NCBI GenBank assembly: GCA_050731715.1
Contig: JBOHPM010000001.1
Span: 1-39,781 of the forward strand
DNA from: Candidatus Rokuibacteriota bacterium
GTDB taxonomy: Bacteria; Methylomirabilota; Methylomirabilia; Rokubacteriales; CSP1-6
DNA: 39,781 nt
Direction of reading: 5' to 3'
The position numbers and the translations under genes were made by a program. Below, one piece after another: positions 4,513-17,728 of the stretch. Under the pieces are notes generated by a model. The model did no database searches. It saw only the letters and a program-made list of their open reading frames with translations, and was not told where the DNA came from. The first letter of the stretch is position 1, and every line of letters starts with the position of its first letter.

Positions 4513-5028
4513 TCATGTTCGGAATCGCACTGGTGGGGAGGGACCAAATCGTGATGACGAGGGAGGATTCCGCTGTTTGTCCGACCGCTTGCCGGTTTCC
4601 TCGATGGCCTGCGCGAATCGCTTCAGGTCACCGTCCCAATCATACGCGGGGAACTCGACGGTAGGCGGCACGGCCGGCTTCGGCCCGCGGAACGGGGAAG
4701 CCGCCATTCCGCGCTGGTCCTTCAGATGGTGAATGTAGATGCCGAGGAGGCCGTTGCTCCGCGCTATCGACTGCTCGATCTCGTACTGCACGTACGGGCG
4801 GTAGGCCGTTTGAGGTCCGATGAGGACCACGGTGACCGAAGTATTCTGAAGCTTCGCTCGGATCAACAGCTTGATCTCATCGTCGCCCTTGCGCTTGGCC
4901 TCCTCGTACTCGGAATGGTCGAAGAACCCGGCCACGTCGGGGCCGGCGACCACGTTCGCGTTGCGCACCTGGTTGGCACGCCAGATGTCGTTTTCGAAAT
5001 GGAACGAGAAGAACACTCGACGGGCCAT
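4513..5028 (-). CDS. TIR-like domain protein (ThsB-like / DUF1863 type)
   Basis: The N-terminus MARRVFFSFHFENDIWRANQVRN...VTVVLIGPQTAYRPYVQYEIEQSI is the characteristic TIR-like (MTH538/ThsB) pattern. It is the last gene of the 7943-to-4513 operon, 4 nt after the preceding gene. Confidence 0.85.
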   Translation of the reverse strand: MARRVFFSFHFENDIWRANQVRNANVVAGPDVAGFFDHSEYEEAKRKGDDEIKLLIRAKLQNTSVTVVLIGPQTAYRPYVQYEIEQSIARSNGLLGIYIHHLKDQRGMAASPFRGPKPAVPPTVEFPAYDWDGDLKRFAQAIEETGKRSDKQRNPPSSSRFGPSPPVRFRT

Positions 5029-5032
5029 AGGC

Positions 5033-5449
5033 TCATCTCCGGGAGAGGGTAATGATGATCGCGACGATCACGACGGCGATCGCCAGGTGAAGATAGAGAA
5101 CCGTTGGACGAAAAAGCGTCCCGAGCCAGCCTCGCAATCTTTTCCGCCGAGAGAGGTGCGGAGGGGCCAGCGAGTACGTCTTCCTCGTGCCGGCGCACAC
5201 TTCGTCGTAGACGGCCCGAAACCGTCGTTCCTGCCAGAGGTAGTAGGCGTCCAGGGCCCAGAAGATGGCGCTCGGGAAGAGCGCGAGCAGCGCGTACGAC
5301 CGCCGATGGGTATTGACAGCGAGCGCCATGAGCGCCGCCACGAGCGTGACCGACCAGCCTTTCAGGGCGAAGGAGTTCTGACCCATCCGGCTGATCACGC
5401 CCTGGACGAGCTTGAGGTGCTCGAGGCACGAGTACTCGTCGGCGTGCAC
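5033..5449 (-). CDS. Small membrane protein (predicted 3 TM segments), unknown family
   Basis: Hydrophobic segments are GWSVTLVAALMALAV, ALLALFPSAIFWALDAYYLW and VLYLHLAIAVVIVAIIITL. It is sandwiched between the two TIR-like genes with 4-nt gaps on each side. Confidence 0.75.
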   Translation of the reverse strand: MHADEYSCLEHLKLVQGVISRMGQNSFALKGWSVTLVAALMALAVNTHRRSYALLALFPSAIFWALDAYYLWQERRFRAVYDEVCAGTRKTYSLAPPHLSRRKRLRGWLGTLFRPTVLYLHLAIAVVIVAIIITLSRR

Positions 5450-5453
5450 GCTT

Positions 5454-6137
5454 TTAGCCGAGCAGCTTCTTCAGGTTTTCCCAGTCCCACTGATAGAGCC
5501 GCCCGGCGTTGGGGACGGGGGTATACGTCCCATCCCGGTATCCGATCATCTGCGCGATCGTGATCCCTTCCTCGCGGGCCATCCGCACCTCCTTCAGAAC
5601 GCCGGGCGCCCCGTATGTGTACCGGCCCACCATGACAAGAACGAGATCGGAACGGCTGATCGCCACCCGGGCCTTGTCCTCCCAGGCCTTCATCGGCGCC
5701 GCTTCCTTCAATGAGCTATCGATGACCTCGAACGGCGAGTCCGGGTTTCGAGCCTGGCCGATGATGAAGTCCTTCAGGACCTTGTCGTTGTCGAAATCGA
5801 AGCTGACGAACACGCGCTTCTTGCCCGTGCGCCTCTCGGGCCGCGAGGTGACATCCAACCCACGCGGAGTCTCAGTCGCGGTGGAACCGGATGCTGCGAT
5901 GGCTAGCGCCGCCAGTGTGCCGAGCCCGAGCAAGGCACCCCAGTTCACCTGTGGGGCGGGAAAGTACGGTCGCAGTTCAGGATGTTCGCCCGCGCGTAAC
6001 CAGACACCACGAACTGGGTCATAGAGCTGGTGCTCCGGGCGCAATTGCCCAGAGAGCGCGAGCTGCCGCCACTCGCTGATCGACCGGTACACCAGAGGTG
6101 GGCCGTATGGCCCGGGCAGGAAGCCAGACATGGCCAA
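5454..6137 (-). CDS. GYF_2-like N-terminal domain + TM helix + TIR-like (ThsB-like) domain protein
   Basis: The N-terminus ...YRSISEWRQLALSGQLRPEHQLYDPVRGVWLRAGEHPELRPYF is GYF_2/DUF4339-like. The TM helix is WGALLGLGTLAALAIAA. The C-terminus KKRVFVSFDFDNDKVLKDFIIGQ...LVLVMVGRYTYGAPGVLKEVRMA is TIR-like. Its start codon directly abuts the stop of the PIN gene (6137/6138). Confidence 0.85.
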   Translation of the reverse strand: MAMSGFLPGPYGPPLVYRSISEWRQLALSGQLRPEHQLYDPVRGVWLRAGEHPELRPYFPAPQVNWGALLGLGTLAALAIAASGSTATETPRGLDVTSRPERRTGKKRVFVSFDFDNDKVLKDFIIGQARNPDSPFEVIDSSLKEAAPMKAWEDKARVAISRSDLVLVMVGRYTYGAPGVLKEVRMAREEGITIAQMIGYRDGTYTPVPNAGRLYQWDWENLKKLLG

Positions 6138-6659
6138 TCACTCCTCCTTTATGAGCTCGTCGAACGGTCGCGGATCCATCTCGAAGCGGTTGTCTCGGAG
6201 TTGCACGCGCAGCGTCTCCGCCAGCGCCGTGGTGATCGCTCCGGCCCTGATCGCCGTCACCAGCGCGCCGACAGTGTCCAGCAAGTAGTTCTCCCCAAGC
6301 CGCGCGAACAGCTCCCGCCGGAAACGCCCCTTCTCATCGGCGGCAATCACCCACCGCCGGCTGACAGCGAGAGCAAGGGACGCGGACTCTCCATCTCCAA
6401 GAAATCGCCGAAACTCGTCGTACAGCAGGATCTCTCCCGACTCGGTAATCTCGATCTCCGTCACGACGCCGCTCTCGATCGCGGCCCGAAGTCGGCGACG
6501 CTGGTCCTCGTACTGGATCTCGGCGCTCACGTGGTTGACAACGTGGAACCGGAACTGCGGGAGCCCGCCCAGGATGTCCATCCGGTCCAGCACGAGGAAG
6601 TTGATGAGGAAGCTGGAGTCGGTGACCACCAGCAGGCGCCCATCGCCCCCTCGTTCCAC
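6138..6659 (-). CDS. PIN-domain protein (DUF3368-like)
   Basis: RLLVVTDSSFLINFLVLDRMDILGGL... shows the N-terminal acidic residue pattern of PIN nucleases. It lies 3 nt downstream of the XRE-ImmA gene. Confidence 0.75.
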   Translation of the reverse strand: MERGGDGRLLVVTDSSFLINFLVLDRMDILGGLPQFRFHVVNHVSAEIQYEDQRRRLRAAIESGVVTEIEITESGEILLYDEFRRFLGDGESASLALAVSRRWVIAADEKGRFRRELFARLGENYLLDTVGALVTAIRAGAITTALAETLRVQLRDNRFEMDPRPFDELIKEE

Positions 6660-6662
6660 CCC

Positions 6663-7943
6663 TCATGCACGCGGGACGTGGGCCCCTCGCCCGCTCTGTC
6701 CCGGCTCCGGCTCTTGCTTCACTGTCGCAACCAGCGCCTTGAACTCGCCCGACTGAACCTGCGCCAGATCGCAGAGCTCCCTCAGCTTCGCCCGGCTGAT
6801 GACCTCCCGGCGCAGCGCCTCAACCGCGAGCAGCACGAGCTGGTGCCGGAACGGCATGTGCCCAGGCGCCTTCGCGTCGGGCTCGGGCCCAAGGAAGCGC
6901 ATGACGTTGGCGGCGGCCTCCTTCTGCTGGACGAGCCCGCCCCGCTCCTCCTCGGTAACGAGCTTGAGATTCAGCAGCCGGTAGAGTGCCGTCTCGTAGC
7001 TCACGCTGAAGTGGTGGGCGAGGTGGGCGACGTCGTAGACCTGGATGTCCTGCGAGTGGGCCTCGCGGCGCCGCTGCCCCTCCACCACGGCGGTCTCGTC
7101 GTACGCCCGGAGCTGGCTCCGGCTCTGCTCGCCCTTGCCCAGCCGCCGGACGAAGGCGCGGACGCCCCCCTCGGGCATCAGAAAGGCCGCGGCAAAGGCA
7201 TTGGCCCGTACCTCGGGCAGCTCCTCGCGGTTTTCGGCCCGGCTCACGAGCCCTCCGCGGTCGTGGTCGACGAGGACATGGCAGTACTCGTGCGCGCACG
7301 AGAACAGCCGGCGCCGCGGCGGGTGATCCTCGTTCACGATGATCGACGGGCCGTACCGGGTGTCGCTCAGGAACAGGCCGGAGATCGTCTCGGACAACGA
7401 CATCTCGATGAACCGGACGCCCTGCGCCTCGAGGAGCTCGGCGAGGTTCGTCAGGGGATCTTCGCCCAGGCGAAGGCGCGCCCGCTCGAGCTCGGCCAAC
7501 CGCTCGCCCTGCCGGATGGCGTCCCAGCGCGTGCGCATGAGTGGGGTGTTGTAGTTGACATCGTAGACGCGGTCCTGGTCGATGCCGAGGAGCGTCTCCA
7601 GGTTCGTGTACTCCCGGCAGAGCTTGACGCACTCGGCGACGGCACCGGCCCGCTCACGGTCGCCCGCGAGCTGGGGGTCCGCCCGGAACAGTGCCGTAAG
7701 GGGATCGCGCTGGGCCTCGTCGAACTCTTCTGCCAGCAGTTCACCAAGCTCGCGCCGATAGATCTCGGCGAGCCGCACGAGGTGGAGGCTGTTCGGCGCC
7801 TTGGCGCCGGCTTCGAAATGCGCGAGGGCGCCGCGCGAGATGCCAAGCTGATCGGCGACGTCCTGCTGGGCGAGCCCCACCGCTTCCCTGGCGCTCTTCA
7901 AACGACGGCCCAACTCCTCCTTGTCCAAGGGCACTTGCGCCAC
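6663..7943 (-). CDS. XRE-family HTH fused to ImmA/IrrE (COG2856, M78) zinc metallopeptidase
   Basis: The HTH is LGRRLKSAREAVGLAQQDVADQLGISRGALAHFEAG. The HExxH motif is in FSCAHEYCHVLVDH. There is a GTG at 7943. A second in-frame GTG at 7934 has better spacing to AGGAGG and may be the true start. Confidence 0.9.
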   Translation of the reverse strand: MAQVPLDKEELGRRLKSAREAVGLAQQDVADQLGISRGALAHFEAGAKAPNSLHLVRLAEIYRRELGELLAEEFDEAQRDPLTALFRADPQLAGDRERAGAVAECVKLCREYTNLETLLGIDQDRVYDVNYNTPLMRTRWDAIRQGERLAELERARLRLGEDPLTNLAELLEAQGVRFIEMSLSETISGLFLSDTRYGPSIIVNEDHPPRRRLFSCAHEYCHVLVDHDRGGLVSRAENREELPEVRANAFAAAFLMPEGGVRAFVRRLGKGEQSRSQLRAYDETAVVEGQRRREAHSQDIQVYDVAHLAHHFSVSYETALYRLLNLKLVTEEERGGLVQQKEAAANVMRFLGPEPDAKAPGHMPFRHQLVLLAVEALRREVISRAKLRELCDLAQVQSGEFKALVATVKQEPEPGQSGRGAHVPRA

Positions 7944-7961
7944 CTCCTCTCTGGGTAACGG

Positions 7962-7974
7962 ATTATGGCATAAT
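7962..7974. promoter_or_regulatory. 13-bp palindrome ATTATG-G-CATAAT overlapping a -10-like CATAAT for the minus-strand operon (operator candidate)
   Basis: Perfect inverted repeat about 20-30 nt upstream of the operon start codons, in the divergent intergenic region 7944-8159. The first gene of the operon encodes an XRE HTH, so autoregulation is plausible. Confidence 0.4.
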
Positions 7975-8114
7975 TCTTCTCATGGCGCTACCAAGGCTTG
8001 GGCCGGCCGTCGCCGCGGATATGGGGCACCGAGCAGGATCAAAAGCGCTGGCTTGGAGGCTCTGATGCGAGTTGTCGGGCTGGCCGCGGGTAAGGGGTCG
8101 ACTCCCAGGGATGG

Positions 8115-8144
8115 TTGACAAAGGGGGCTCGGAGAGCCTATTTT
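8115..8144 (+). promoter_or_regulatory. Sigma70-like promoter TTGACA-18 nt-TATTTT for the AbiE pair
   Basis: TTGACA is at 8115-8120 and TATTTT at 8139-8144. The ATG at 8160 follows. Confidence 0.45.
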
Positions 8145-8159
8145 ACCCGTACGGTAAAA

Positions 8160-9212
8160 ATGGCATATACAGTAAAACTCAAGAAGGGCAGCGCCCTCGA
8201 AACTAGCGTCCTGGGCGCCCTGCGCGAGGTACTACCCGCTTTCAGGGTCGCCCAGGAACGCACCGGAAGGCAGGCGACCTGGGATCTGACGTTCACGGTC
8301 CGGTCGGGCAGCACCGCGCGGCGGCTCCTCGTCGAGTGCAAGTCCGTCGGCGAACCCAGGTACCTCGCCCAGGCGATCACCGTCCTCACGCTGGCATCCA
8401 AGAGGTCCCCCCTGGGCTACCCCGTTGTCGCCGCGCCCTACATCGGGCCCGAGGGACAGCGGCTCTGCCGCGAGGCCGGCGTCGGTTACCTGGATCTGAC
8501 GGGCAACGCCTTCCTCAAGTTCGACGGCGTCCTTGTGGACCGGCGAAGCGGTGAACACCCGCCGCGCGCCAAGGCGCGGCTCCGACGCCTCTTCTCCCCC
8601 AAGTCGTCCCGCATCCTCCGCGTCCTGCTCGAGAACCCCGACCAGGAGTGGACACTGGCGCGGCTCGCAACTGAAGCCGCGATCAGCGTGAGGACCGCCC
8701 ACCTCGTCATCAACGCGCTAGAGGAGAAGGCCTTCGTCGACAAGCGGCGTGGCGCCATCAGGCTCGAAAAGCCGGCGCCGCTCCTGGATCTCTGGACCGA
8801 GAACTATCGGCTCGACCAGCACCGCCGCCAGACCTTCTACAGCTTCGTCCGAAGTCCTCGGGAGCTGGCCGCCAAGCTCGCCGCCCAGACCACTGCCCAG
8901 CGCGTATCGCTGGCGCTTACGGTCCACGCGGGCGCTGCGCTTGTGGCCCCTTTCGTCCGCTACACTGACGTCCACGCGTACGTCTTGGACGACATCGATC
9001 GTCTCGTGAAGTCTCTTGATCTCCGCCCGACAGAAGCTGGCGGCAATGTTCACCTCCTCACGCCAAACGACGAAGGCGTCTTCTACAGAATCCAGACGAT
9101 CGACGGCGTTCCGGTGGTCTGCAACACCCAGCTCTTTCTCGACCTGCTCCACTACCCTGGGCGTGGCCGCGAGGCCGCCGAAGAGCTTCGCCGCCAGAAG
9201 ATGGGGTATTAG
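8160..9212 (+). CDS. abiEi: AbiEi-like type IV antitoxin/transcriptional regulator with an extra N-terminal domain
   Basis: The central winged-helix segment is SSRILRVLLENPDQEWTLARLATEAAISVRTAHLVINALEEKAFV. The C-terminal region ends ...CNTQLFLDLLHYPGRGREAAEEL, typical of AbiEi-type partners. It lies immediately upstream of an AbiEii NTase. The start is placed at the ATG at 8160 because the TTG at 8115 is the -35 hexamer. Confidence 0.7.
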   Translation: MAYTVKLKKGSALETSVLGALREVLPAFRVAQERTGRQATWDLTFTVRSGSTARRLLVECKSVGEPRYLAQAITVLTLASKRSPLGYPVVAAPYIGPEGQRLCREAGVGYLDLTGNAFLKFDGVLVDRRSGEHPPRAKARLRRLFSPKSSRILRVLLENPDQEWTLARLATEAAISVRTAHLVINALEEKAFVDKRRGAIRLEKPAPLLDLWTENYRLDQHRRQTFYSFVRSPRELAAKLAAQTTAQRVSLALTVHAGAALVAPFVRYTDVHAYVLDDIDRLVKSLDLRPTEAGGNVHLLTPNDEGVFYRIQTIDGVPVVCNTQLFLDLLHYPGRGREAAEELRRQKMGY

Positions 9213-9216
9213 GCGC

Positions 9217-10116
9217 GTGACGCCCAAACCCAGGACGGCCGGCGACTACGAAGACGATGCCACCGCCGCCTCTCGCCTCGGCTTGGCGGAGATCATGACC
9301 GCGCTCGGCGCCTACCGCGACGCTCTCGTGCTGATTGGCGGCTGGGCGCCGTATCTGATCCTCGAGCAGTTCGGGGAGCAGGGCGCCTTCCAGGCTGATG
9401 CATTTCAGGGCGACGCGTTCCAGACGGGATTTGCCCACGTCGGGTCGATCGACATCGACTTCGTGGTGGATCCCGCAATCGTCGACGCCGACCGCTACGC
9501 GACCATCGTGGAATCGCTGCTCGGCCGCGCTTACGAGCCCGTCAAGGATTCCCGCTTTCAGTTCCAGAAGATCGTCGCCTCCCCGCTGAACGGTCGGCCG
9601 CATCTGATCCGCGTGGACTTCCTGACGCCGAGGCCTCTCGCGGGACAGGGTCGCTCACACCGCCACCGCGAGATCCAACACGATCTCCAGGCGCGGACGC
9701 TTGAGGGCGCCGACGTCGCCCTCAGGCATTGGTTCTGGTACGAGTTCGACGCCCAGCTCCCCGACGGCGCCCAGACGCGCGTCCGTGTGAAAGTCGCCGA
9801 CGTCGTGGGAAGTCTCGCCCTCAAGGGCATCGCCATCGGTGAGCGTTACGCCGAGAAGGATGCTTACGATATCTGGGCGCTCTGCGCCCACTACCGCGGA
9901 GGACCCCCCGATGTTGCCGAGGCGCTTCGCCGGTGTCGAGACGAGGAGGCAGTGCGCCGAGGTCTCACCATGATCTCCGAGAAATTCCGCGCCCGCGATG
10001 CCGAGGGCCCCACATGGGTCGCAGTGTTCGTGGGCTCGGGGAGCGCTGAGGAATACGAACGGATTCGCACCGATGCTCACATGACAGTGGGCGAGGTGCT
10101 TCGCATTCTCGGTTGA
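9217..10116 (+). CDS. abiEii: AbiEii/AbiGii-family nucleotidyltransferase toxin
   Basis: LVLIGGWAPYLIL ... HVGSIDIDFVVD match the NTase G-G and DxD motifs of the AbiEii family. The GTG at 9217 is 5 nt after the abiEi stop, with an alternative ATG at 9295. The track ORF from 9016 overlaps abiEi and is rejected. Confidence 0.8.
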   Translation: MTPKPRTAGDYEDDATAASRLGLAEIMTALGAYRDALVLIGGWAPYLILEQFGEQGAFQADAFQGDAFQTGFAHVGSIDIDFVVDPAIVDADRYATIVESLLGRAYEPVKDSRFQFQKIVASPLNGRPHLIRVDFLTPRPLAGQGRSHRHREIQHDLQARTLEGADVALRHWFWYEFDAQLPDGAQTRVRVKVADVVGSLALKGIAIGERYAEKDAYDIWALCAHYRGGPPDVAEALRRCRDEEAVRRGLTMISEKFRARDAEGPTWVAVFVGSGSAEEYERIRTDAHMTVGEVLRILG

Positions 10117-10382
10117 CGCGCGCGAGCCTCACCGGAGCCTGAGCCGCACAGTTCTCTTGCACGGCGAAGGCTCCGCCGCCAAGCGGCGGCGCGGCGCCGA
10201 GCGCCTACGGCGCCTACGCGGCTTTGCGCCCGAGGTAGGTCAGCCAGATGCGCCGCCACTCCCGGGGGGCGCCAAGCGACGGTGACGTTTGGGCGACGGT
10301 CGGGATGACCGTCCTTCCGCCCGCCGGCAACCCGTAGTTGATCCTCTCTCCGTCCCGATGTATCACTTTGGTCACTCTCTGA

Positions 10383-13300
10383 GTGGGGAGACGGAGCTTT
10401 CCCAATGACAACACGAGTTTGATGCCGGCAGACGATACCGCTCTGCCCGAGCTCGGCCAGCTCGCCGAGGTCCGCCAGCGGCGTTGGATCGTCACCGACG
10501 TCCGTGCCAGTACGCTCATGCCCTCTCCTCTCGAACCCCCCAGCGCCAACGGTCACCACCACCTAGTCTCCCTCGCCTCCGTCGAGGACGACGGTCTGGG
10601 CGAGGAACTGCAGTTTATCTGGGAGCTTGAGCCCGGCGCGCGTGTCCACGAACGCGTCTCCCTGCCCGAGCCCACCGGGTTCGACACCTCCCACCGCCTC
10701 GACGCGTTCCTCGATGCCGTGCGGTGGGGCGCCAGCTCGACCGCCGACGTCCGGACGCTCCAGGCGCCGTTCCGGAGCGGCATCGAGATCGAGGACTATC
10801 AGCTCGACCCCGTCGTCCGTGCGATCCAGATGCCGCGCGTGAACCTCCTCATCGCCGACGATGTCGGGCTCGGCAAGACGATCGAGGCCGGACTCGTCAT
10901 CCAGGAGCTGATCGTCCGTCATCGGGCGCGGCGGGTGCTGATCGTCTGCCCGGCGTCGCTCCAGATCAAGTGGCAAACCGAGATGCGAGAGAAGTTCGGG
11001 CTCGACTTCCGCATCGTGGATGCCGATCTGCTCAAGCAGCTCCGCCGCCAGCGCGGCCTGCATGCGAATCCGTGGACGCACTTCCCCCGGCTGATTGCCT
11101 CCCTCGACTTCGTCAAACGGGAGCGCCCCTTGCGCCTCCTGCGCGAGGCGCTGCCGGCCCCTGGCCAGCCGGCCTACCCGCGGCGCTTCGACTTCCTCGT
11201 CGTGGACGAGGCGCACAACGTCGCACCGTCAGGACGTGGACGGTATGCCACCGACTCGCTGCGAACGCATGCGATCCGGACGATCGCCCCACACGCGGAG
11301 CACAAGCTTTTCGTCAGCGCGACGCCCCACAACGGCTACCTCGAAAGCTTCACGGCGCTCCTCGAGCTGCTCGACAACCAGCGCTTCGCCCGCAGCGTGA
11401 AGCCGGATCGGCAGCAGCTCAACGCGGTCATGGTTCGCCGCCTGAAGTCAGAGCTTCCCCCGCGCTGGGATGGCACACCCCGCTTCCCGGGTCGCGTCAT
11501 CGAGCCGATCGAGGTCGACTACACCGATGCCGAGCGGGCCGTGCATGCTGCACTCCAGCGCTACAGCATGCTGCGGCAAGAGCGGGCGCGTGATCACGTC
11601 GAGCGCTTCGCCTCGGAATTCGTCCTGCTGCTTCTCAAGAAACGACTTTTCTCCTCGCCTGCGGCATTCCAGAAGACGCTCTCGCAGCATGAGCAGTCGA
11701 TAACGGCCGCCCGTCGGCGCCGGAGTGCACTCGAAACACCGACGCTCGGCGTCCTCCGGCGCATCGTGGACAAGGTCGACGAGGAGTATGGCGACGACAG
11801 CGCGGCCGATGATGCTGTCGACGAGGCGGTTGACGGTGCCTCGCGGCTCTTCTCCGACCTGAGCGGAGAGGAACGCGATCTCCTTCAGAGCATGCGCGAG
11901 GCGGCGGCGACTGCTGTAGGCCGTCCCGACTCCAAGGCACACGAGCTGATCCGCTGGCTCAACGCCACGCTCCGCCCTGCCGGCACGTGGTCGCACGAGC
12001 GCGTGATCATCTTCACGGAGTACCGGGCAACCCAGAGCTGGCTTCACGAGCGCCTGGCGATGGAGGGCCTCGCTGGCAACGACCGCTTGCTGACGCTCTA
12101 CGGCGGCATGGACGACAAGACCCGCGAAACCGTCAAGGCTGCGTTCCAGGCCGACCCAGCTACCTCGCCCGTGCGTATCCTGCTTGCCACCGATGCGGCC
12201 TCCGAAGGCATCGACCTCCAGCGTTACTGCTCCCGCCTCGTTCACTACGAGATCCCGTGGAACCCGAACCGGATGGAGCAGCGCAACGGGCGAATCGACC
12301 GCCACGGCCAACGCGCGGAATGCGTGCTGGTTTACCACTTCGTCGGTAAGGGCTACCGCGAGCGGGCAGAGGGCGACGCGCTTCCGACGGGCCAGCTCGA
12401 GGGCGACCTGGAGTTCCTCGCACGGGCCACCATCAAGATCGACCGCATTCGGCAGGACCTTGGCACGGTGGGGCCTGTCATCGCCCAGCAGGTGGAAGAG
12501 GCGATGCTCGGTCGTCGCCAGCGTCTCGATACCGAGGGGGCTGAGCGCCGCGCCGAACCCGTTCGTGCCATGCTTCGGTTCGAGCGGCGGCTGCGTGAAC
12601 AAATCGCCGAGCACCTCGAGCAACTACAAGAAACTCGCCGCGAGCTACGGCTCTCGCCGGACAACGTCCAGGCCGTTGTCGAGATCGCGCTGGCGCTCGC
12701 CGGCCAGCCACCCCTCCGGGAGGCCACGCTGCCGGGCGTCTGGCCCGATCCCACGGCGCAGCGCACCCGCTGCCCCGTGTTCCACCTCCCGGCGCTCGGC
12801 GGGACGTGGGCGCTTTGCTCCGAGGGGCTCCAGCACCCTCACACCGGCGTGGTTCGACCGATCACTTTCGACCACGCGATCGCCGGCGACAGGGACGACG
12901 TCGTGCTTGCCCACCTGAACCACCGGCTCGTCCAGATGTGCCTGCGCCTCCTGCGCGGCGAGGTGTGGGCAAGTCACCGCCGCAAGCGCCTGCACCGCGC
13001 GACGGCGCGCGTCGTGCCCGACACCGCTCTCGACACTCCGGCCATGATCGGCCACGCGCGCCTCGTCGTGGTCGGAGGCGACAGCCAGCGGCTGCACGAG
13101 GAGGTGATTACCACCGGCGGTCGCCTCCGCGAGGGGCGCTTCGCTCGGATGAACGTCGGCGAGGTGGCCTCGGCCCTCGCCGCCGCAGGCGATACAGAGC
13201 CGGCCGAGGCGGTCAAGCAGCGTCTTCTCGATCTCTGGCCACGTCATGCCGATGCGCTCGTCGCCGCCTTGGAGGCCCGCATGCGCGACCGCACTGACGG

Positions 13301-13610
13301 CCTCCAGAAGGCCCTCGCCGACCGGGCTGAGCAGGAAATCCAGACGATCACTGCCGTGCTCACCGAGCTGCGTCAGAGCATCCTCGCCGAGATCGAGGCC
13401 CCGTCCGTTGAGCAGCTGGAACTGTTCTCGTCCGCCGAGCGCGATCAGCTCGACCGGAACCTCGCGAGCCTCCGCGCCCGCGCCGAGCGCATCCCAGCAG
13501 AGATCGCGGAGGAGACCGAAGCTATCCGCGCGCGCTTCGCGCGCCCGGAGCCCCGGCTCTTCCCGGTGGCCGTGACGTTCCTCGTGCCCGAGCGGTTCGC
13601 CAGGGGTTGA
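10383..13610 (+). CDS. drmD: DISARM class 1 SNF2-family helicase DrmD
   Basis: SNF2 motifs present are LLIADDVGLGKTIEAG (I), LVVDEAHNV (II), LLATDAASEGIDLQ (V) and WNPNRMEQRNGRIDRHGQ (VI). It is followed by a translationally overlapped large N6-MTase and then drmA/B/C. The start is uncertain (GTG 10383 or ATG 10422). Confidence 0.9.
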   Translation: MGRRSFPNDNTSLMPADDTALPELGQLAEVRQRRWIVTDVRASTLMPSPLEPPSANGHHHLVSLASVEDDGLGEELQFIWELEPGARVHERVSLPEPTGFDTSHRLDAFLDAVRWGASSTADVRTLQAPFRSGIEIEDYQLDPVVRAIQMPRVNLLIADDVGLGKTIEAGLVIQELIVRHRARRVLIVCPASLQIKWQTEMREKFGLDFRIVDADLLKQLRRQRGLHANPWTHFPRLIASLDFVKRERPLRLLREALPAPGQPAYPRRFDFLVVDEAHNVAPSGRGRYATDSLRTHAIRTIAPHAEHKLFVSATPHNGYLESFTALLELLDNQRFARSVKPDRQQLNAVMVRRLKSELPPRWDGTPRFPGRVIEPIEVDYTDAERAVHAALQRYSMLRQERARDHVERFASEFVLLLLKKRLFSSPAAFQKTLSQHEQSITAARRRRSALETPTLGVLRRIVDKVDEEYGDDSAADDAVDEAVDGASRLFSDLSGEERDLLQSMREAAATAVGRPDSKAHELIRWLNATLRPAGTWSHERVIIFTEYRATQSWLHERLAMEGLAGNDRLLTLYGGMDDKTRETVKAAFQADPATSPVRILLATDAASEGIDLQRYCSRLVHYEIPWNPNRMEQRNGRIDRHGQRAECVLVYHFVGKGYRERAEGDALPTGQLEGDLEFLARATIKIDRIRQDLGTVGPVIAQQVEEAMLGRRQRLDTEGAERRAEPVRAMLRFERRLREQIAEHLEQLQETRRELRLSPDNVQAVVEIALALAGQPPLREATLPGVWPDPTAQRTRCPVFHLPALGGTWALCSEGLQHPHTGVVRPITFDHAIAGDRDDVVLAHLNHRLVQMCLRLLRGEVWASHRRKRLHRATARVVPDTALDTPAMIGHARLVVVGGDSQRLHEEVITTGGRLREGRFARMNVGEVASALAAAGDTEPAEAVKQRLLDLWPRHADALVAALEARMRDRTDGLQKALADRAEQEIQTITAVLTELRQSILAEIEAPSVEQLELFSSAERDQLDRNLASLRARAERIPAEIAEETEAIRARFARPEPRLFPVAVTFLVPERFARG

Positions 13611-16600
13611 GCGTGTCCGTCGCCCGCCACCACGTCGAGTGGCTGTCGCTGGTCGAGACCTCCGGGCCCTTCCTCTCGATGCCGGTGCTCTTGCGCGCGT
13701 TCCCGCAGGAGCTCGACAAGGCGGATGCGGACCACACGCGGAGCCTCCGCCTCGCGCACGAGGAGTGGGAGGAGAGCCAGGAGCGGCATCCTGATCCGGC
13801 CTTTCACACTGCGTGGGTTCGCTTCGTCCTGACGGAAACTCTCGGGCTTCCCACCGAGGTATTAGCCGAGGGTCCCCGCATGCCGGCGGGCCTCCGCGTG
13901 ATGGTCGCCGAGCACGGGGAGGTCCTTGCACCCGATCTCGTCGTCGTGAACCCCGATGGGACACCTGGCGCCGGGAGACCCCGCCTCCTCGTTCAGGTCT
14001 ACCCCGCCAGGCAAGACCTCCGCCGTGCTGTCGCGGCATCCCGCTGGAAGGTCTCGCCCGAAACGCGAATGGTCGAACTGCTGCGAGGAACCGACACGCG
14101 GCTCGGCCTAGTAACGAACGGCGAGCACTGGATGCTCGTCTCGGTCCGCCCCGGCGAGCCCGCGGGCTTCGCCTCGTGGTACGCCGCACTCTGGCTCGAG
14201 GAGCCGCTCACGCTCCGGGCCTTCCGGAGCCTGCTCGGCGCCCACCGGTTCTTCTCCGTCGCCGAGAGCGAGACTTTGGAGGCGCTGCTCGCCGAGAGCG
14301 CCGCGGACCAGCAGGAGGTCACGGATCAGCTCGGCTTGCAAGTGCGGCGTGCCGTCGAACTGCTCGTGGCCGCCCTCGACCGTGCCGACCGCGATCACGG
14401 CCGCGCCCTGTTGCGCGACGTGCCAGACGCCCGCCTGTACGAAGCTGCGGTGACGGCTATGATGCGGCTCGTCTTCCTCTTCGCCGCAGAGGAGCGCGGC
14501 TTGCTCCTGTTGGGCGATCCGCTCTACGACCAGCACTACGCGATTTCCACGCTCCGCGCACAGCTGCGCGAGACGGCCGACCGGCACGGCGAGGAGGTGC
14601 TGGAGCAGCGCATCGACGCGTGGTGCCGGCTGCTCGCCACGTTCCGTACGGTTCACAGCGGCATGCGTCACGACCGGCTGACGCTCCCCGCCTACGGCGG
14701 CTCGCTCTTCGACCCCGACCGCTTCCCGTTCCTCGAGGGGCGCGGCGAGGGAACGTCGTGGCGGACGACGGCAGCCGCTCCCCTCCCCGTGAACAACCGC
14801 ACGGTGCTTCACCTCCTCGAGGCCCTCCAGATGCTGGAGGTACGCCTCCCCGGCGGCGGCCCCGCCGAGGCCCGGCGCCTCAGCTTCCGCGCGCTCGACA
14901 TCGAGCAGATCGGCCACGTCTATGAGGGGCTCCTCGACCACACCGCCGCCCGCGCCCCCACCCCCGTGATCGGCCTCGTCGGCACGCGTGAGGGCGAGGC
15001 CGAGGTCCCGCTCGATTCGCTGGAACGATTGCGCGCGGATGGCGAGGCCCGGCTCGTTGAGTTCCTGTCTGAAGAGACCGGGCGTCAGCCGACGACGATC
15101 CGCCGGGCACTGGCCTACGAGCCGGTTGGTGAGGATGTCCATCGCCTGCTCGTTGCCTGCGATAACGACGAACGTCTGGAGCGCCGCGTGCGGCCGTTCG
15201 CCGGCCTCGTGCGCGAGGACACGCGCGGCTATCCAGTGGTGATCCCGCCGGGCAGCGTGTACGTCACGCGCGGCAGCGACCGGCGCACCACGGGCACCCA
15301 CTACACCCCGCGGAGTCTCACCGAGCCGATCGTCCGCTACACGCTGGAACCTCTCGTATACGAGGGCCCCGCCGAGGGGTGGCGGCGTGAGGAGTGGCGC
15401 CTGCGGCCCGCGCGCGACCTCTTTGCCCTTCGCGTCTGCGACATGGCGATGGGCTCGGGCGCCTTTCTCGTTCAGGTGTGCCGATTTCTCTCGGAACGTC
15501 TGGTCGAGGCTTGGGAGGAAACCGAGCGCCAGCATCCGGGCGCGCCTGGCATCACCCCGGAGGGCGCGGTCGCGACAGGGGCGGCGGAGGAGCGGCTCAT
15601 CCCGAAGGACACAGAGGAGCGGCTGGCGCTCGGCCGCCGCCTCGTTGCCGACCGCTGCCTCTACGGCGTGGACAAGAACCCCATGGCCGTGGAGATGGCC
15701 AAGCTCTCGCTCTGGCTTGTTACGCTCCAGAAGGACCGGCCGTTCACGTTCCTCGACCACGCGCTCAAGTCCGGCGACTCTTTGCTGGGCGTCACCAGCG
15801 CCGAGCAGATCGAATGGGCGCACCTGGACCCTCAAAAAGGCCGTCAGCTTCCATTTTGGGCCGCGCTCTGCGCGCCAGCCCTCCGCACGGCGGTCGAAAA
15901 GCGCCGCCAACTCGAGTCGTTCACGGTCGAAACTGTCGTCGATGCCGAAGAGAAGGCGCGTCTCTTGCGCGAGGCGGAGGCTGCCCTCGGTGTCGTCAGG
16001 CTGATCGGTGACCTGATCGTTGGTGCCGGGCTCTCAACGGCGGGGAAGAAAGCCAGCGCTCTCGACGAACGACTCGATGAGATCGGGGAGTTGGTCCGCA
16101 AGACTCTCTCGCCGGCGACACCGACTACCGAGCGCGAGACGCAACTGCTTGCTCTTCGCGAGCGCGCGCGAACGATGCTCGGCATAGCCGGTAGTGCTTC
16201 ACCGGTACCCTTTCACTGGGCGCTGGAGTTCCCCGAGATTTTCGACGCGACGAGGAACGAGCGCTGTGGCTTCGATGCAATCGTCGGCAACCCGCCGTTC
16301 CTTACCGGAACCTCCATAAGTACCTTCCTAGGTCCCAGTTACCGTGCTTATCTCAATTTGGTCTGGCCGCACCTCCACGGGCGTGCCGATCTCTGTGTCG
16401 TATTCATGCTGAGAGGCGCTCAGCTTTGTCCACCAAAGGGCGCGATGGGGTTTGTCGGCTCCAACACGACCTCAGAAACTGATTCTCGCCTCTCTGGACC
16501 TGCCTACCTGTTGAGCTGTGGGTTTTCGATCTACCGTGCTGTGAAGTCCCAGCCGTGGCTAGGCGGCGCCTCGGTTCATGTGTGCCAAGTCCACTACTAT

Positions 16601-17716
16601 AACGGCTCCTGGCGTGGGGCCTATGTTCTGGATGGCGTAGTCACCGCCTCGATCAACTCATCGCTCGATGCAGCACAGGAAGGGCCCGAACCTCACACCC
16701 TTCTCGCAAGCAAAGCGAAGTCATACACGGGAACTAAGGTTTACGGCGAAGGGTTCATTGTCGCCGACGACGAGGCCCTCACGCTCCTTTCGGCTGCGCC
16801 AGAGTACTCACGCGTCGTGAAGCCGTTCCTGATCGGCCGCGAGGTTAACGAGCATCCCGAATGTGCACCCTCACGATATGTCATTGACTTCACAGGTATG
16901 ACAGCGGAGCAAGCGAAGCAATACCCCTTGGCCTGGAGAATTGTTGACGAACGAGTTAGACCCCAGCGACAGTCCGCCCCGGAAAGCAGGATGAGGCGCG
17001 TCTGGTGGCAGTTCCAACGTCCTCGTCTCGCCCTCTATGAACGCCTCCGTACGCTTGGCGTCGCGTGGATTGTCGCGGCCACCAGCGACACTGTTGCATT
17101 TGTTGGTCTACGAATAGGTCCGGAACGCCCTCTTATCCTCTCGCACGCCGTGAACGTCATGTCTCTCGACGGATACGGCGAGTTCGCCGTTGTCCAGAGC
17201 TCGATTCATCTAACATGGGCGCGGCGCTACGGCTCAACTCTGAAAGGCGATTTTCGATACACAACGACCGATTGCTTCGACACGTTTCCATTTCCGGAAC
17301 GGACGCTGGATCTCGAGGCAGCTGGTAAGTCCTATCATGAGTACCGGCAGAACGTGATGCGCACTCGAGGGGAAGGACTAACAGCTGTCTATCGCCGTTT
17401 CAATGATGCAACCGAATCGGGAGTCGACATACTTCGGTTGCGCAGCCTCCACGCCGACGTGGACCGCGGCGTCGCTGCCGCCTACGGCTGGACCAGCCTC
17501 GATCTCGGGCACGGCTTCCACGAGACGAAGCAAGGCCTCCGCTTCACCATCAGTGAGCCCGCCCGCCAGGAAGTCCTGGCCCGCCTCCTCCACCTTAACC
17601 ACGCCCGCTATGCCGACGAGCTCCGCCGTGGCCTTCATGCCAAGAAGAGCCGCAGTCGCCGGAACGATCAGGCCGATGGGGACGCGCTGTTCGAACTGGA
17701 CCGGGACAACGAATAG
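13607..17716 (+). CDS. drmMI: DISARM class 1 N6-adenine DNA methyltransferase DrmMI (Eco57I-like, 1369 aa)
   Basis: Motif I is VCDMAMGSGAFLV and motif IV is AIVGNPPFLTG. The TTG at 13607 overlaps the drmD TGA (TTGA), with an alternative GTG at 13613. Confidence 0.9.
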   Translation: MSVSVARHHVEWLSLVETSGPFLSMPVLLRAFPQELDKADADHTRSLRLAHEEWEESQERHPDPAFHTAWVRFVLTETLGLPTEVLAEGPRMPAGLRVMVAEHGEVLAPDLVVVNPDGTPGAGRPRLLVQVYPARQDLRRAVAASRWKVSPETRMVELLRGTDTRLGLVTNGEHWMLVSVRPGEPAGFASWYAALWLEEPLTLRAFRSLLGAHRFFSVAESETLEALLAESAADQQEVTDQLGLQVRRAVELLVAALDRADRDHGRALLRDVPDARLYEAAVTAMMRLVFLFAAEERGLLLLGDPLYDQHYAISTLRAQLRETADRHGEEVLEQRIDAWCRLLATFRTVHSGMRHDRLTLPAYGGSLFDPDRFPFLEGRGEGTSWRTTAAAPLPVNNRTVLHLLEALQMLEVRLPGGGPAEARRLSFRALDIEQIGHVYEGLLDHTAARAPTPVIGLVGTREGEAEVPLDSLERLRADGEARLVEFLSEETGRQPTTIRRALAYEPVGEDVHRLLVACDNDERLERRVRPFAGLVREDTRGYPVVIPPGSVYVTRGSDRRTTGTHYTPRSLTEPIVRYTLEPLVYEGPAEGWRREEWRLRPARDLFALRVCDMAMGSGAFLVQVCRFLSERLVEAWEETERQHPGAPGITPEGAVATGAAEERLIPKDTEERLALGRRLVADRCLYGVDKNPMAVEMAKLSLWLVTLQKDRPFTFLDHALKSGDSLLGVTSAEQIEWAHLDPQKGRQLPFWAALCAPALRTAVEKRRQLESFTVETVVDAEEKARLLREAEAALGVVRLIGDLIVGAGLSTAGKKASALDERLDEIGELVRKTLSPATPTTERETQLLALRERARTMLGIAGSASPVPFHWALEFPEIFDATRNERCGFDAIVGNPPFLTGTSISTFLGPSYRAYLNLVWPHLHGRADLCVVFMLRGAQLCPPKGAMGFVGSNTTSETDSRLSGPAYLLSCGFSIYRAVKSQPWLGGASVHVCQVHYYNGSWRGAYVLDGVVTASINSSLDAAQEGPEPHTLLASKAKSYTGTKVYGEGFIVADDEALTLLSAAPEYSRVVKPFLIGREVNEHPECAPSRYVIDFTGMTAEQAKQYPLAWRIVDERVRPQRQSAPESRMRRVWWQFQRPRLALYERLRTLGVAWIVAATSDTVAFVGLRIGPERPLILSHAVNVMSLDGYGEFAVVQSSIHLTWARRYGSTLKGDFRYTTTDCFDTFPFPERTLDLEAAGKSYHEYRQNVMRTRGEGLTAVYRRFNDATESGVDILRLRSLHADVDRGVAAAYGWTSLDLGHGFHETKQGLRFTISEPARQEVLARLLHLNHARYADELRRGLHAKKSRSRRNDQADGDALFELDRDNE

Positions 17717-17728
17717 CCGAGGGGCCAT

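What the first reader, a model, noticed from the sequence alone, without database searches (positions are those of the whole stretch)
4513..7943. Five-gene, gap-free operon: XRE-ImmA/IrrE, PIN, GYF-TM-TIR-like, small TM protein, TIR-like (candidate undescribed defence system)
All five minus-strand genes are packed with gaps of 0-4 nt (6663/6659, 6138/6137, 5454/5449, 5033/5028). This argues for a single co-translated unit rather than neighbouring independent modules. The domain combination is a DNA-binding metallopeptidase (a typical signal-responsive derepressor), a PIN nuclease, two ThsB-type TIR-like proteins (one membrane-anchored with a GYF_2-type N-terminal domain) and a small 3-TM protein. 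I do not recognise this combination as any named system. It sits in a defence island beside AbiE and DISARM.
Basis: partly seen in the sequence, partly recalled or inferred. Interest (0 to 1): 0.78.

Follow-up and report, generated by a model that had tools for sequence, protein, structure and literature searches.

The report
Thoeris cassette fused behind regulator-toxin pair
The five tightly packed genes are real, but they are two already-described modules joined together: a repressor-peptidase plus PIN nuclease pair, and a Thoeris-type phage-defence cassette of two TIR enzymes and a small membrane effector.

Summary
Five minus-strand genes at 4513-7943 are separated by 3-6 nt, with no internal promoter- or terminator-like site. 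A conserved promoter/operator lies upstream at 7954-7992.

1. The parts match existing models. Genes 4 and 5 hit PADLOC PDC-M50A/B. They correspond to type V Thoeris (ThsB TIR plus a three-helix membrane effector, ThsF), validated in a December 2025 preprint. Gene 1 hits RmrA and CapP/CapH models. Gene 2 is a DUF3368/COG2405 VapC-like PIN, a partner of HTH-M78 proteins predicted since 2009.

2. The modules occur independently. None of 80 loci holding the membrane protein has the PIN. Most loci holding the regulator/PIN pair carry other cargo (Wadjet, STAND, HNH) or none.

The regulator/PIN pair also lies divergent to AbiE and DISARM. That arrangement was published for a DISARM system in Nocardia.

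Three things are new:
- The two modules are joined in one operon, kept in at least four flanking contexts in close relatives.
- A weak GYF-like domain plus one membrane helix is fused to a ThsB. In sister loci the same anchor carries an HNH nuclease.
- A variable cargo slot lies behind the regulator/PIN pair.

Verdict: a new variant of known kinds, of moderate interest.

The parts
7954..7992 (-). Conserved promoter/operator of the operon: GGTAGC, 16 nt, TGcCATAAT (extended -10), 2 nt, GTTACC. The outer hexamers form an imperfect inverted repeat that brackets the -10 element.
   Evidence: Aligning 230 nt upstream of XRE-M78 from 14 loci shows only this block conserved; the rest does not align. 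CATAAT-N2-3-GTTACC occurs once in the window (0 expected) and once in each of 12 loci, always just upstream of XRE-M78. Its role as an operator is inferred.
6663..7943 (-). HTH(XRE)-M78/ImmA/IrrE-type zinc peptidase fusion. It resembles a CapH-CapP fusion and RmrA. The probable start is the GTG at 7934, and the HExxH motif is at residues 218-222.
   Evidence: Pfam HTH_3 and Peptidase_M78. PADLOC RmrA 1.2e-28, capP 5.5e-14 and capH 1.1e-7. PDB 9VZY 1.9e-11 and IrrE orthologue 8SLM 2.4e-3. Start codon; motif position.
6138..6659 (-). VapC-like PIN nuclease of the DUF3368/COG2405 family. It always lies directly downstream of the XRE-M78 gene.
   Evidence: Precomputed PF11848. PADLOC PDC-S70 1.6e-7. 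AF2 pLDDT 95, with fold matches to PAE2754 and VapC. Acidic residues D14, E47, E91 and D108 are conserved.
5454..6137 (-). Fusion protein made of a weak GYF_2-like N-terminal domain (residues about 19-55), one membrane helix (64-82), a basic linker and a ThsB-type TIR domain (106-227, conserved Glu183). The probable start is the ATG at 6131.
   Evidence: ThsB_TIR 1.1e-4. The C-terminal 124 aa are about 80% identical to stand-alone TIR proteins. They are 44-46% identical to TIRs listed as 'DUF2270 - Type V'. GYF_2 E 0.049. Hydropathy and flanking charge. Sister loci carry the same N-terminus fused to HNH.
5033..5449 (-). Small three-helix membrane protein (PADLOC PDC-M50A). It is ThsF-like and DUF2270-like, and is the presumed Thoeris effector.
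   Evidence: PDC-M50A 4e-38. AF2 pLDDT 93.5, all-helical. The family has 5,792 representatives. DUF2270 is the top remote Pfam hit but stays below the cut-off. Its neighbours are TIR or SLOG proteins.
4513..5028 (-). Soluble ThsB-type TIR protein (PDC-M50B). Glu83 aligns with the Glu of the YEI motif in Bacillus cereus ThsB.
   Evidence: ThsB_TIR 2.2e-22. PADLOC ThsB 2.2e-49 and PDC-M50B 1.2e-45. PDB 6LHY and 9B7D about 7e-24. 44% identical to a Type V TIR of Table S1.
8115..26546 (+). Context, not part of the operon: a divergently transcribed AbiEi/AbiEii-like pair followed by class 1 DISARM (drmD, drmMI, an inserted HEC-05-like gene, drmA, drmB, drmC). It may be a second target of the XRE-M78 regulator.
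   Evidence: PADLOC and Pfam. Lau et al. 2022 report a vapC-like gene plus a CapH-CapP fusion protein upstream of, and opposite to, DISARM in Nocardia wallacei.

Best explanation
The block is a composite operon made of two separately evolving modules that are transcribed from one conserved promoter.

Module 1 is genes 1 and 2. Gene 1 is an HTH-M78 fusion protein and gene 2 is a DUF3368/COG2405 PIN nuclease. This pair is a portable regulator/toxin unit. It corresponds to the predicted Xre-COG2856 plus PIN 'three-component' toxin-antitoxin system, is related to RosmerTA RmrA, and is related to CapH/CapP.

I infer that the HTH binds the inverted repeat across the -10 element and keeps the operon repressed. 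It may also repress the divergent AbiE/DISARM operon. A stress signal then activates the peptidase, which removes the repressor. By analogy with CapP, IrrE and ImmA, the signal would be single-stranded DNA or DNA damage produced during infection. The PIN protein is either a toxin held in check by gene 1 or an accessory nuclease.

Module 2 is genes 3 to 5. It is a Thoeris-type signalling system of the type V kind: two ThsB TIR enzymes flanking a small three-helix membrane effector (ThsF-like). On sensing phage, the TIRs convert NAD+ into a cyclic ADP-ribose isomer. The effector oligomer binds this signal and opens or disrupts the membrane, which aborts the infection.

In this lineage the first ThsB has been fused in frame to the GYF-like plus membrane-helix N-terminus of the gene that normally follows the PIN. 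In sister loci that gene carries an HNH nuclease. The fusion tethers one signal generator to the membrane and places the cassette under the regulator's promoter.

Shown here: gene identities, modular distribution, the fusion, and the conserved cis element.

Inferred: repression and derepression, the chemistry of the signal, effector gating, and the role of the PIN.
For: Module identities:
- Pfam, PADLOC and PDB matches.
- PIN fold.

The membrane effector family is the type V Thoeris effector family or its close sister:
- Its neighbours in 80 genomes are TIR proteins in 58 loci, with two or more in about 22, and TIR-TM-TIR is common.
- Other neighbours are TIR_2 and SLOG cluster 3 proteins, and a SLOG::TM fusion exists.
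- Homologues of the validated B. thuringiensis type V ThsB sit directly next to it in L074, L075, L008 and a Klebsiella plasmid.
- 28 of 33 'DUF2270 - Type V' TIRs from Table S1 find their best match in these loci. Most of those matches lie 2-39 nt from the membrane-protein gene, and identity reaches 82%.
- DUF2270 is the top remote Pfam hit, always in the same register.

Type V properties come from the preprint: ThsB plus a three-TM ThsF, 3'cADPR as signal, a heptameric channel model, and multi-ThsB loci.

Independence of the modules:
-.

One transcription unit with a conserved promoter/operator:
-.

Published precedents:
- Xre-COG2856 plus PIN (PMC2701414 and PMC5499597).
- ImmA antitoxin node linked to PIN-like toxins (PMC10440598).
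- CapH-CapP fusion plus a vapC-like gene opposite DISARM.

The domain swap between GYF-TM-HNH and GYF-TM-TIR:
-.
Against: - The window's membrane protein gives no Pfam hit itself. The family reaches only 12-18 bits against the DUF2270 cut-off of 25. Identity with ThsF therefore rests on neighbour orthology, not on a direct comparison with a ThsF sequence.
- No experiment bears on regulation. The operator is inferred from conservation only.
- CapH/CapP-type regulators are described as sitting opposite their target operon, whereas here cargo lies downstream on the same strand.
- The five-gene set and the in-frame fusion are kept in several flanking contexts. Some functional integration beyond shared transcription therefore cannot be excluded.
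- One type V system in the preprint did not respond to 3'cADPR, so the signal here is uncertain.
Confidence: 0.65

Rival explanations
1. One reading: all five proteins form one integrated and so far undescribed defence system. The repressor-peptidase would sense the signal, the TIRs would signal, and both the PIN and the membrane protein would act as effectors that depend on each other.
For: - Gaps of 3-6 nt and a single conserved promoter.
- The five-gene order recurs with at least four different flanks in relatives whose membrane protein is 82-88% identical.
- Gene 3 physically fuses a part of module 1 (the GYF-TM anchor) to a part of module 2 (the TIR).
- A distant locus, L093, again places an XRE-M78 gene in front of TIR-TM-TIR.
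Against: - None of 80 loci with the membrane protein has the PIN or an adjacent XRE-M78.
- At 59% identity the pair is membrane protein plus TIR alone.
- TIR-TM-TIR stands alone in Leptospirillum.
- Most XRE-M78/PIN loci carry other cargo or none.
- L081-L083 lack the last TIR, and L093 lacks the PIN.
- All conserved five-gene copies are close relatives, so shared ancestry explains the synteny.
Confidence: 0.1
2. Genes 1-2 are primarily an autonomous RosmerTA-like toxin-antitoxin or abortive-infection module, with the PIN as toxin and the HTH-M78 protein as antitoxin. The module stabilises mobile defence islands or defends in its own right. The Thoeris cassette merely landed in a recombination-prone slot behind it, and co-transcription has no regulatory meaning.
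For: - RmrA models are the best PADLOC hits, and NCBIfam hits the spr1629 repressor/antitoxin family.
- NetFlax links the ImmA antitoxin node to PIN-like toxins, and RosmerTA systems defend against phage.
- The Xre-COG2856 plus PIN toxin-antitoxin prediction.
- The pair is often solitary.
- Decayed cargo remnants lie behind it in L104-L106.
- Integrases are nearby.
Against: - The PIN matches no RmrT model, only PDC-S70.
- The pair is repeatedly placed divergent to defence operons, as described for CapH/CapP regulators.
- Cargo genes start within -4 to +66 nt of the PIN stop. Apart from the 66-nt gap in L112 that leaves little room for a separate promoter, so the pair's promoter must drive most of them.
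Confidence: 0.2
3. Genes 1-2 belong functionally to the divergent AbiE/DISARM operon, as its DNA-damage-responsive regulator. Genes 3-5 are an unrelated insertion with no link to them beyond read-through transcription.
For: - Lau et al. 2022 describe a vapC-like gene plus a CapH-CapP fusion upstream of, and opposite to, drmD-drmMI-drmA-drmB-drmC.
- The window has the same layout.
- Homologous pairs lie divergent to E2-like, E1/JAB and multiubiquitin operons.
Against: - An AbiE-like pair with its own palindrome and promoter-like site lies between the regulator and drmD.
- The closest relatives of this regulator pair sit opposite a 324-aa E2-like gene, not DISARM, so the DISARM link is not conserved.
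- This reading is compatible with the best explanation and does not exclude it.
Confidence: 0.3

Closest known systems
Type V Thoeris (ThsB TIR plus ThsF, a DUF2270 three-TM effector; Yirmiya et al., bioRxiv 10.64898/2025.12.03.692087)
   Same: - A small three-helix membrane protein lies next to ThsB-type TIR genes, and loci with several ThsB genes are known.
- Both window TIRs are 44-46% identical to TIRs listed as Type V.
- TIRs next to this membrane family reach 82% identity to Type V TIRs.
- The catalytic Glu is present in both TIRs.
   Different: - The effector does not reach the Pfam DUF2270 cut-off.
- One ThsB is fused to a GYF-like domain plus a membrane anchor.
- The cassette has no promoter region of its own and sits behind a regulator/PIN pair.
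- The signal molecule is untested.
PADLOC candidate system PDC-M50 (A: membrane protein; B: TIR)
   Same: Genes 4 and 5 hit both models strongly (4e-38 and 1.2e-45), and their order and spacing are typical of the 80 genome loci.
   Different: PDC-M50 is a two-gene computational candidate. Here there is an extra upstream TIR, and that TIR is fused to an anchor.
Xre-COG2856 (HTH-M78) plus PIN 'three-component' toxin-antitoxin system (Makarova 2009; Matelska 2017), and RosmerTA (RmrA/RmrT)
   Same: An HTH-M78 fusion gene lies directly upstream of a COG2405/DUF3368 PIN gene. RmrA models are the top hits.
   Different: - The PIN matches no RmrT model.
- Toxicity and neutralisation are untested.
- The pair here is followed by cargo genes in the same operon.
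CapH/CapP (and IrrE/DdrO, ImmR/ImmA) DNA-damage-responsive repressor/peptidase regulators, including the CapH-CapP fusion plus vapC-like gene upstream of DISARM (Lau et al. 2022)
   Same: - It has an HTH plus M78 peptidase, with capP and capH model hits.
- It is placed divergent to a DISARM operon and has a VapC-like neighbour.
- It has a conserved inverted repeat over its promoter.
   Different: - It is a single fused polypeptide.
- The GAF domain and single-stranded DNA binding were not examined.
- An AbiE pair intervenes before DISARM.
- Defence cargo also lies downstream on the same strand.

Membership tests
Type V Thoeris (ThsB + ThsF) | One or more TIR-domain ThsB genes lie directly adjacent to the effector gene. 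| tested here: met
   Gene 5 starts 4 nt after gene 4, and gene 3 ends 4 nt before it. Gene 5 hits ThsB_TIR at 2.2e-22, and PDB ThsB 6LHY and 9B7D at about 7e-24.
Type V Thoeris (ThsB + ThsF) | The effector is a small protein with three membrane-spanning helices. | tested here: met
   The AF2 model (pLDDT 93.5) is all-helical, with long helices at 3-47, 57-86 and 115-137. Hydropathy gives two strong segments (27-45 and 117-135), and the segment at 52-72 is moderate.
Type V Thoeris (ThsB + ThsF) | The effector belongs to Pfam PF10028 (DUF2270). | tested here: inconclusive
   The window protein has no hit at E<=0.1. Of 135 family members, 35 hit DUF2270, the best at 1.4e-5. Family consensus sequences score 16-18 bits against a cut-off of 25, always aligning to profile positions 23 to about 100. 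This is a remote relative by sequence. No ThsF sequence was available for a direct comparison.
Type V Thoeris (ThsB + ThsF) | The partner TIRs are of the kinds found with ThsF. | tested here: met
   The window TIRs are 44-46% identical to 'DUF2270 - Type V' TIRs. Of 33 such TIRs, 28 have their best match in loci holding this membrane protein, mostly next to its gene, with identities up to 82%. Homologues of the validated B. thuringiensis ThsB are adjacent to it.
Type V Thoeris (ThsB + ThsF) | Phage triggers 3'cADPR synthesis, and the signal activates effector toxicity. | not testable with these tools
   This needs infection lysates with LC-MS, and feeding of the signal molecule to cells.
PADLOC PDC-M50 | Adjacent genes match the PDC-M50A and PDC-M50B models. 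| tested here: met
   4e-38 and 1.2e-45.
Type I / type II Thoeris | The effector is ThsA (SIR2-SLOG) or a Macro-TM protein. | tested here: not met
   None of the six proteins has a SIR2, SLOG or Macro hit.
SLATT-effector systems (type VII Thoeris) | The membrane effector matches a Pfam SLATT family. | tested here: not met
   No SLATT family appears among the top-ranked hits, even at E<=10 for 33 members or E<=1 for 135 members.
Xre-COG2856 + PIN three-component TA | A fused HTH and M78/COG2856 peptidase with an HExxH motif. | tested here: met
   HTH_3 1.3e-10 and Peptidase_M78 2.5e-21. HEYCH at residues 218-222.
Xre-COG2856 + PIN three-component TA | A PIN-like (COG2405/DUF3368) gene lies in the same operon. 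| tested here: met
   Precomputed PF11848 and PIN fold. The XRE-M78 gene lies directly upstream of the PIN in every PIN locus with readable upstream sequence; the gap is 3 nt in the closest relatives.
Xre-COG2856 + PIN three-component TA | The PIN is toxic and its partner neutralises it. | not testable with these tools
   This needs expression assays.
RosmerTA | An RmrA-type antitoxin is paired with a recognised RmrT toxin. | tested here: not met
   RmrA models hit gene 1 (1.2e-28). Gene 2 hits no RmrT model, only PDC-S70.
CapH/CapP-type regulators | An HTH repressor plus M78 peptidase is encoded upstream of, and opposite to, a defence operon. | tested here: met
   capP 5.5e-14 and capH 1.1e-7. 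AbiE and DISARM are on the opposite strand, starting 171 nt away. The published DISARM precedent includes a vapC-like gene.
CapH/CapP-type regulators | Single-stranded DNA stimulates cleavage of the repressor, and the peptidase has a C-terminal GAF domain. | not tested
   The C-terminal 100 residues of gene 1 were not modelled.

The most novel reading that the evidence does not exclude
The GYF-like domain plus single membrane helix could be an exchangeable, outward-facing sensor-anchor. The positive-inside rule places the GYF-like part outside the cell and the enzyme part inside. The anchor would couple events at the cell envelope, such as phage adsorption or DNA injection, to a cytoplasmic 'head' that is an HNH nuclease in sister loci and a ThsB TIR here.

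In this operon that would give a membrane-localised Thoeris signalling unit, with the tethered ThsB next to the ThsF-like channel. The HTH-M78/PIN pair would make this unit inducible, and the pair itself would act as a general 'regulator plus cargo slot' platform for Wadjet, STAND, HNH and Thoeris cargo.
Probability: 0.12. Interest if true: 0.7.

Novelty: new variant of a known kind. Interest (0 to 1): 0.4.

Why it matters
If the composite reading is right, three things follow.

1. This would be a natural case of a Thoeris signalling system placed under a CapH/CapP-like, probably damage-inducible, repressor-peptidase. That would bear on why some abortive-infection systems are controlled at the level of transcription.

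2. Thoeris TIR sensors are so far described as soluble proteins. A membrane-tethered ThsB, whose anchor carries an HNH nuclease in sister loci, suggests a reusable anchor module and gives a handle on where sensing takes place.

3. The HTH-M78/PIN pair behaves as a portable platform, with variable defence cargo behind it and variable defence operons opposite it. That pattern could be mined for new cargo.

The membrane family is also very large: 5,792 representatives at 50% identity, found across bacteria, archaea and enterobacterial plasmids. Pfam largely misses it.

Tried and rejected
- **SLATT identity for gene 4.** No SLATT family appears in lenient Pfam scans of 33 and 135 members.
- **Solved-structure relatives of gene 4.** None by fold; the best Foldseek E-value is 0.55.
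- **Sequence search of PDB with the PIN profile.** No meaningful hit; the fold search was needed.
- **Fetching a bona fide ThsF sequence** through homologues of the B. thuringiensis ThsB on Bacillus and Priestia plasmids. Those loci are multi-TIR type I/II islands with no membrane ORF next to the TIR.
- **Table S3 of the preprint.** It is truncated and lists none of my genomes.
- **A separate promoter for the DUF5677 gene.** I first read TTGACA...TATACT upstream of it as a promoter. The spacer is 20 nt and the scanner does not report it, so I withdraw this.
- **GYF_2 domain.** Only a sub-threshold hint.
- **PDB 9VZY.** It is the best structural relative of gene 1, but no held paper mentions it.
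- **'PDC-M50' in the literature.** No paper holds the term.
- **PIN homologues in phage genomes.** None.
- **The 324-aa E2-like divergent gene.** No PDB sequence relative.

Full report
**1. The observation**

The window is a contig of a Candidatus Rokuibacteriota genome assembled from a metagenome (source name).

Two starts need correcting. An alignment of the upstream regions of 14 homologous loci shows that the conserved start of gene 1 is the GTG at 7934, which is ATG in some loci. It follows a GGAGG ribosome-binding site, and it gives 423 aa as in homologues. The public record for gene 3 is 225 aa, so it starts at the ATG at 6131.

The intergenic gaps are then 3, 6, 4 and 4 nt. A consensus scan finds no promoter-like or terminator-like site on the minus strand inside the block.

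**2. What each gene is**

| Gene | Coordinates | Identity | Key evidence |
|---|---|---|---|
| 1 | 6663-7943 | HTH (XRE) fused to an M78/ImmA/IrrE zinc peptidase, HExxH at 218-222 | |
| 2 | 6138-6659 | VapC-like PIN nuclease, DUF3368/COG2405 family | |
| 3 | 5454-6137 | GYF-like domain, one membrane helix, ThsB-type TIR | |
| 4 | 5033-5449 | Three-helix membrane protein, PDC-M50A | |
| 5 | 4513-5028 | Soluble ThsB-type TIR, PDC-M50B | |

- **Gene 1.** The best PADLOC models are RmrA, the RosmerTA antitoxin (1.2e-28), then capP (5.5e-14) and capH (1.1e-7). The closest solved structure is 9VZY, an HTH-peptidase protein (1.9e-11). An IrrE orthologue is a weaker match.
- **Gene 2.** It carries a precomputed PF11848 (DUF3368) assignment and hits PADLOC PDC-S70. 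The AlphaFold2 model (pLDDT 95) matches PIN proteins PAE2754 and several VapC toxins with probability 1.00. The acidic residues D14, E47, E91 and D108 are conserved.
- **Gene 5.** It is a clear ThsB: Pfam 2.2e-22, PADLOC ThsB 2.2e-49 and PDC-M50B 1.2e-45. It is about 50% identical over the first 100 residues to Bacillus cereus ThsB structures 6LHY and 9B7D. Glu83 aligns with the Glu of the YEI motif in that enzyme.
- **Gene 4.** It has no Pfam hit but hits PDC-M50A at 4e-38. Its model (pLDDT 93.5) is all-helical, with three long hydrophobic or amphipathic helices. It has no fold relative in the PDB.
- **Gene 3.** It is a fusion. Residues 106-227 are a TIR domain about 80% identical to a very widespread stand-alone 124-aa ThsB_TIR protein. 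Residues 64-82 form one membrane helix followed by a basic stretch. Residues 19-55 give only a sub-threshold GYF_2 match (E 0.049).

**3. The TIR and membrane-protein core stands on its own**

A profile of the gene 4 family found 447 loci in representative genomes of bacteria and archaea. An exhaustive search found 5,792 representatives at 50% identity.

In the 80 best loci:
- 58 have at least one TIR gene directly adjacent.
- About 22 have two or more, and TIR-TM-TIR is a recurrent layout.
- Other neighbours are TIR_2 proteins and SLOG cluster 3 proteins. A SLOG::TM fusion protein also exists.
- None has a PIN homologue, and none has an adjacent XRE-M78 gene.

Further points:
- A relative whose membrane protein is 59% identical is a bare membrane-protein plus TIR pair.
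- Leptospirillum has TIR124-TM-ThsB next to Mrr and a type ISP restriction enzyme.
- 127 plasmids, mostly conjugative Klebsiella and E. coli plasmids, hold a relative of the membrane protein. The two inspected have a TIR gene beside it.

**4. The core corresponds to type V Thoeris**

A preprint from December 2025 (bioRxiv 10.64898/2025.12.03.692087) validates Thoeris types V to XI. Type V is ThsB plus ThsF, a three-TM protein annotated DUF2270. It signals with 3'cADPR and is modelled as a heptameric channel. Loci with several ThsB genes are recorded.

I could not obtain a ThsF sequence, so I tested the link indirectly, in three ways.

(a) DUF2270 is the most frequent Pfam hit for the gene 4 family. 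It hits 35 of 135 members (best 1.4e-5), and family consensus sequences score 16-18 bits. The alignment is always in the same register but stays below the 25-bit cut-off.

(b) Both window TIRs are 44-46% identical to TIRs that Table S1 lists as 'DUF2270 - Type V'.

(c) Of 33 such TIRs, 28 have their best match in my loci anchored on the membrane protein. Most of those matches lie 2-39 nt from the membrane-protein gene, at up to 82% identity. Homologues of the experimentally validated B. thuringiensis ThsB are directly adjacent to the membrane protein in L074, L075, L008 and a Klebsiella plasmid.

I conclude that gene 4 belongs to the ThsF family as used in that study, or to its immediate sister family. 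Formal Pfam membership is not shown.

**5. The regulator/PIN pair also stands on its own**

The PIN family has many more close relatives than the membrane protein of this operon. In 31 metagenome loci an XRE-M78 gene lies directly upstream of the PIN wherever the sequence is present, 3 nt away in the closest relatives. What follows the PIN varies:

| Cargo behind the PIN | Loci |
|---|---|
| TIR cassette | L103, L116 |
| Same GYF-like plus TM N-terminus fused to an HNH nuclease (HNH 1.8e-13) | L111, L114 |
| Decayed remnants of that gene | L104-L106 |
| Membrane protein plus a metallo-beta-lactamase-fold protein | L107, L110, L117 |
| Wadjet (DUF2397, DUF2398) | L108, L109 |
| STAND-like protein of at least 1,242 aa (runs off the contig end) | L112 |
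| Nothing | L118-L120, L124, L127 |

On complete plasmids of Methylomonas and Rhizobium the pair stands alone. In Methylomonas it is divergent to a multiubiquitin plus ThiF operon. In close relatives the divergent neighbour is a 324-aa E2-like gene or an E1/JAB/E2-like set.

All of this matches published descriptions:
- The Xre-COG2856 fusion linked to PIN toxins (Makarova 2009).
- COG2405/DUF3368 co-transcribed with HTH and DUF955 (Matelska 2017).
- The ImmA antitoxin node linked to PIN-like domains (NetFlax).
- CapH/CapP-like regulators encoded opposite defence operons. These include 6a and 6e ubiquitin-like systems, and a DISARM system with a vapC-like gene plus a CapH-CapP fusion (Lau 2022).

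The window has that last layout. Genes 2 and 1 run leftward, while AbiE-like genes and a class 1 DISARM run rightward.

**6. What ties the two modules together here**

- **One promoter.** The only conserved block upstream of gene 1 across loci is GGTAGC, 16 nt, TGcCATAAT, 2-3 nt, GTTACC. This is an extended -10 element bracketed by an imperfect inverted repeat, at window 7954-7992. The core motif occurs once in the window (none expected by chance) and once in each of 12 loci, always at this position.
- **A gene fusion.** The third gene of the regulator module is normally GYF-TM-HNH. Here its N-terminus is joined in frame to the first ThsB of a TIR-TM-TIR cassette.
- **Persistence.** The joined arrangement is found with at least four different flanks among relatives whose membrane protein is 82-88% identical. 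One of these, L081-L083, has lost the last ThsB next to an integrase fragment.

**7. Most likely mechanism**

Shown here: the gene identities, the modular distribution, the fusion and the conserved cis element.

Inferred:
- Gene 1 represses the promoter through the inverted repeat.
- Its peptidase is activated by an infection or DNA-damage cue, as for CapP, IrrE and ImmA, and this relieves repression.
- The ThsBs sense phage and make a cADP-ribose isomer from NAD+.
- The ThsF-like oligomer binds the isomer and disrupts the membrane.
- The PIN is either a toxin restrained by gene 1 or an accessory nuclease.

Charge distribution suggests that the GYF-like part of gene 3 faces outward and the TIR faces the cytoplasm. 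Whether that has a sensing role is open.

**8. Verdict**

The locus is a new variant that combines known kinds:
- a regulator/PIN platform,
- a type V-like Thoeris with two ThsBs,
- a membrane-tethered ThsB created by domain swapping.

Noticed in passing
window 8136-8164: A 29-bp near-perfect palindrome (GCCTATTTTACC-CGTAC-GGTAAAAATGGC) overlaps the promoter-like TTGACA-N18-TATTTT site and the probable ATG of the AbiEi_2-like gene. It may be an AbiEi autoregulatory operator.
   Followed up: no
window 17729-19948: A 739-aa gene matching PADLOC HEC-05 (1.5e-50) and PDC-M55C sits between drmMI and drmA inside the DISARM operon.
   Followed up: no
window 3500-4354; L084 4447-5297: A DUF5677 gene (3.5e-15) follows the last ThsB gene in the window. 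A fragmented copy does the same in L084/L116, but not in the other five-gene loci. Its function and any link to the cassette are unknown.
   Followed up: partly
L019, L041, L067, L069; protein P0369: The ThsF-like membrane family also pairs with SLOG cluster 3 proteins when no TIR is adjacent. It also exists as a SLOG-cluster-2::TM fusion, which suggests effector variants with a built-in nucleotide sensor.
   Followed up: partly
L134 (K. pneumoniae pCuAs), L135 (Klebsiella sp. plasmid): Relatives of the membrane protein are on 127 plasmids, mostly conjugative Klebsiella and E. coli plasmids. In both records inspected the gene is annotated only as a hypothetical protein and lies next to a TIR protein.
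   Followed up: partly
L107-L112, L114, L117; L138 (Methylomonas plasmid): The HTH-M78/PIN pair behaves as a platform. Variable cargo follows it (Wadjet, a STAND-like protein, a membrane protein plus an MBL-fold protein, GYF-TM-HNH). Variable defence-like operons lie opposite it (a 324-aa E2-like gene, E1/JAB/E2-like sets, multiubiquitin plus ThiF).
   Followed up: partly
L096-L102; proteins P0135-P0240: A stand-alone 124-aa ThsB_TIR protein is about 80% identical to the gene 3 TIR domain across distant lineages (source names include Burkholderiales, Betaproteobacteria and Leptospirillum). That is unusually conserved for a defence protein. It also occurs in clusters of Patatin-SLOG plus several TIR proteins.
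   Followed up: partly
L093 3140-5842: A distant relative (membrane protein 50% identical) has XRE-M78, a TIR_2-like protein, the membrane protein and ThsB, all between integrase genes and without a PIN. This is a second, independent pairing of an M78 regulator with a TIR-TM-TIR cassette.
   Followed up: partly
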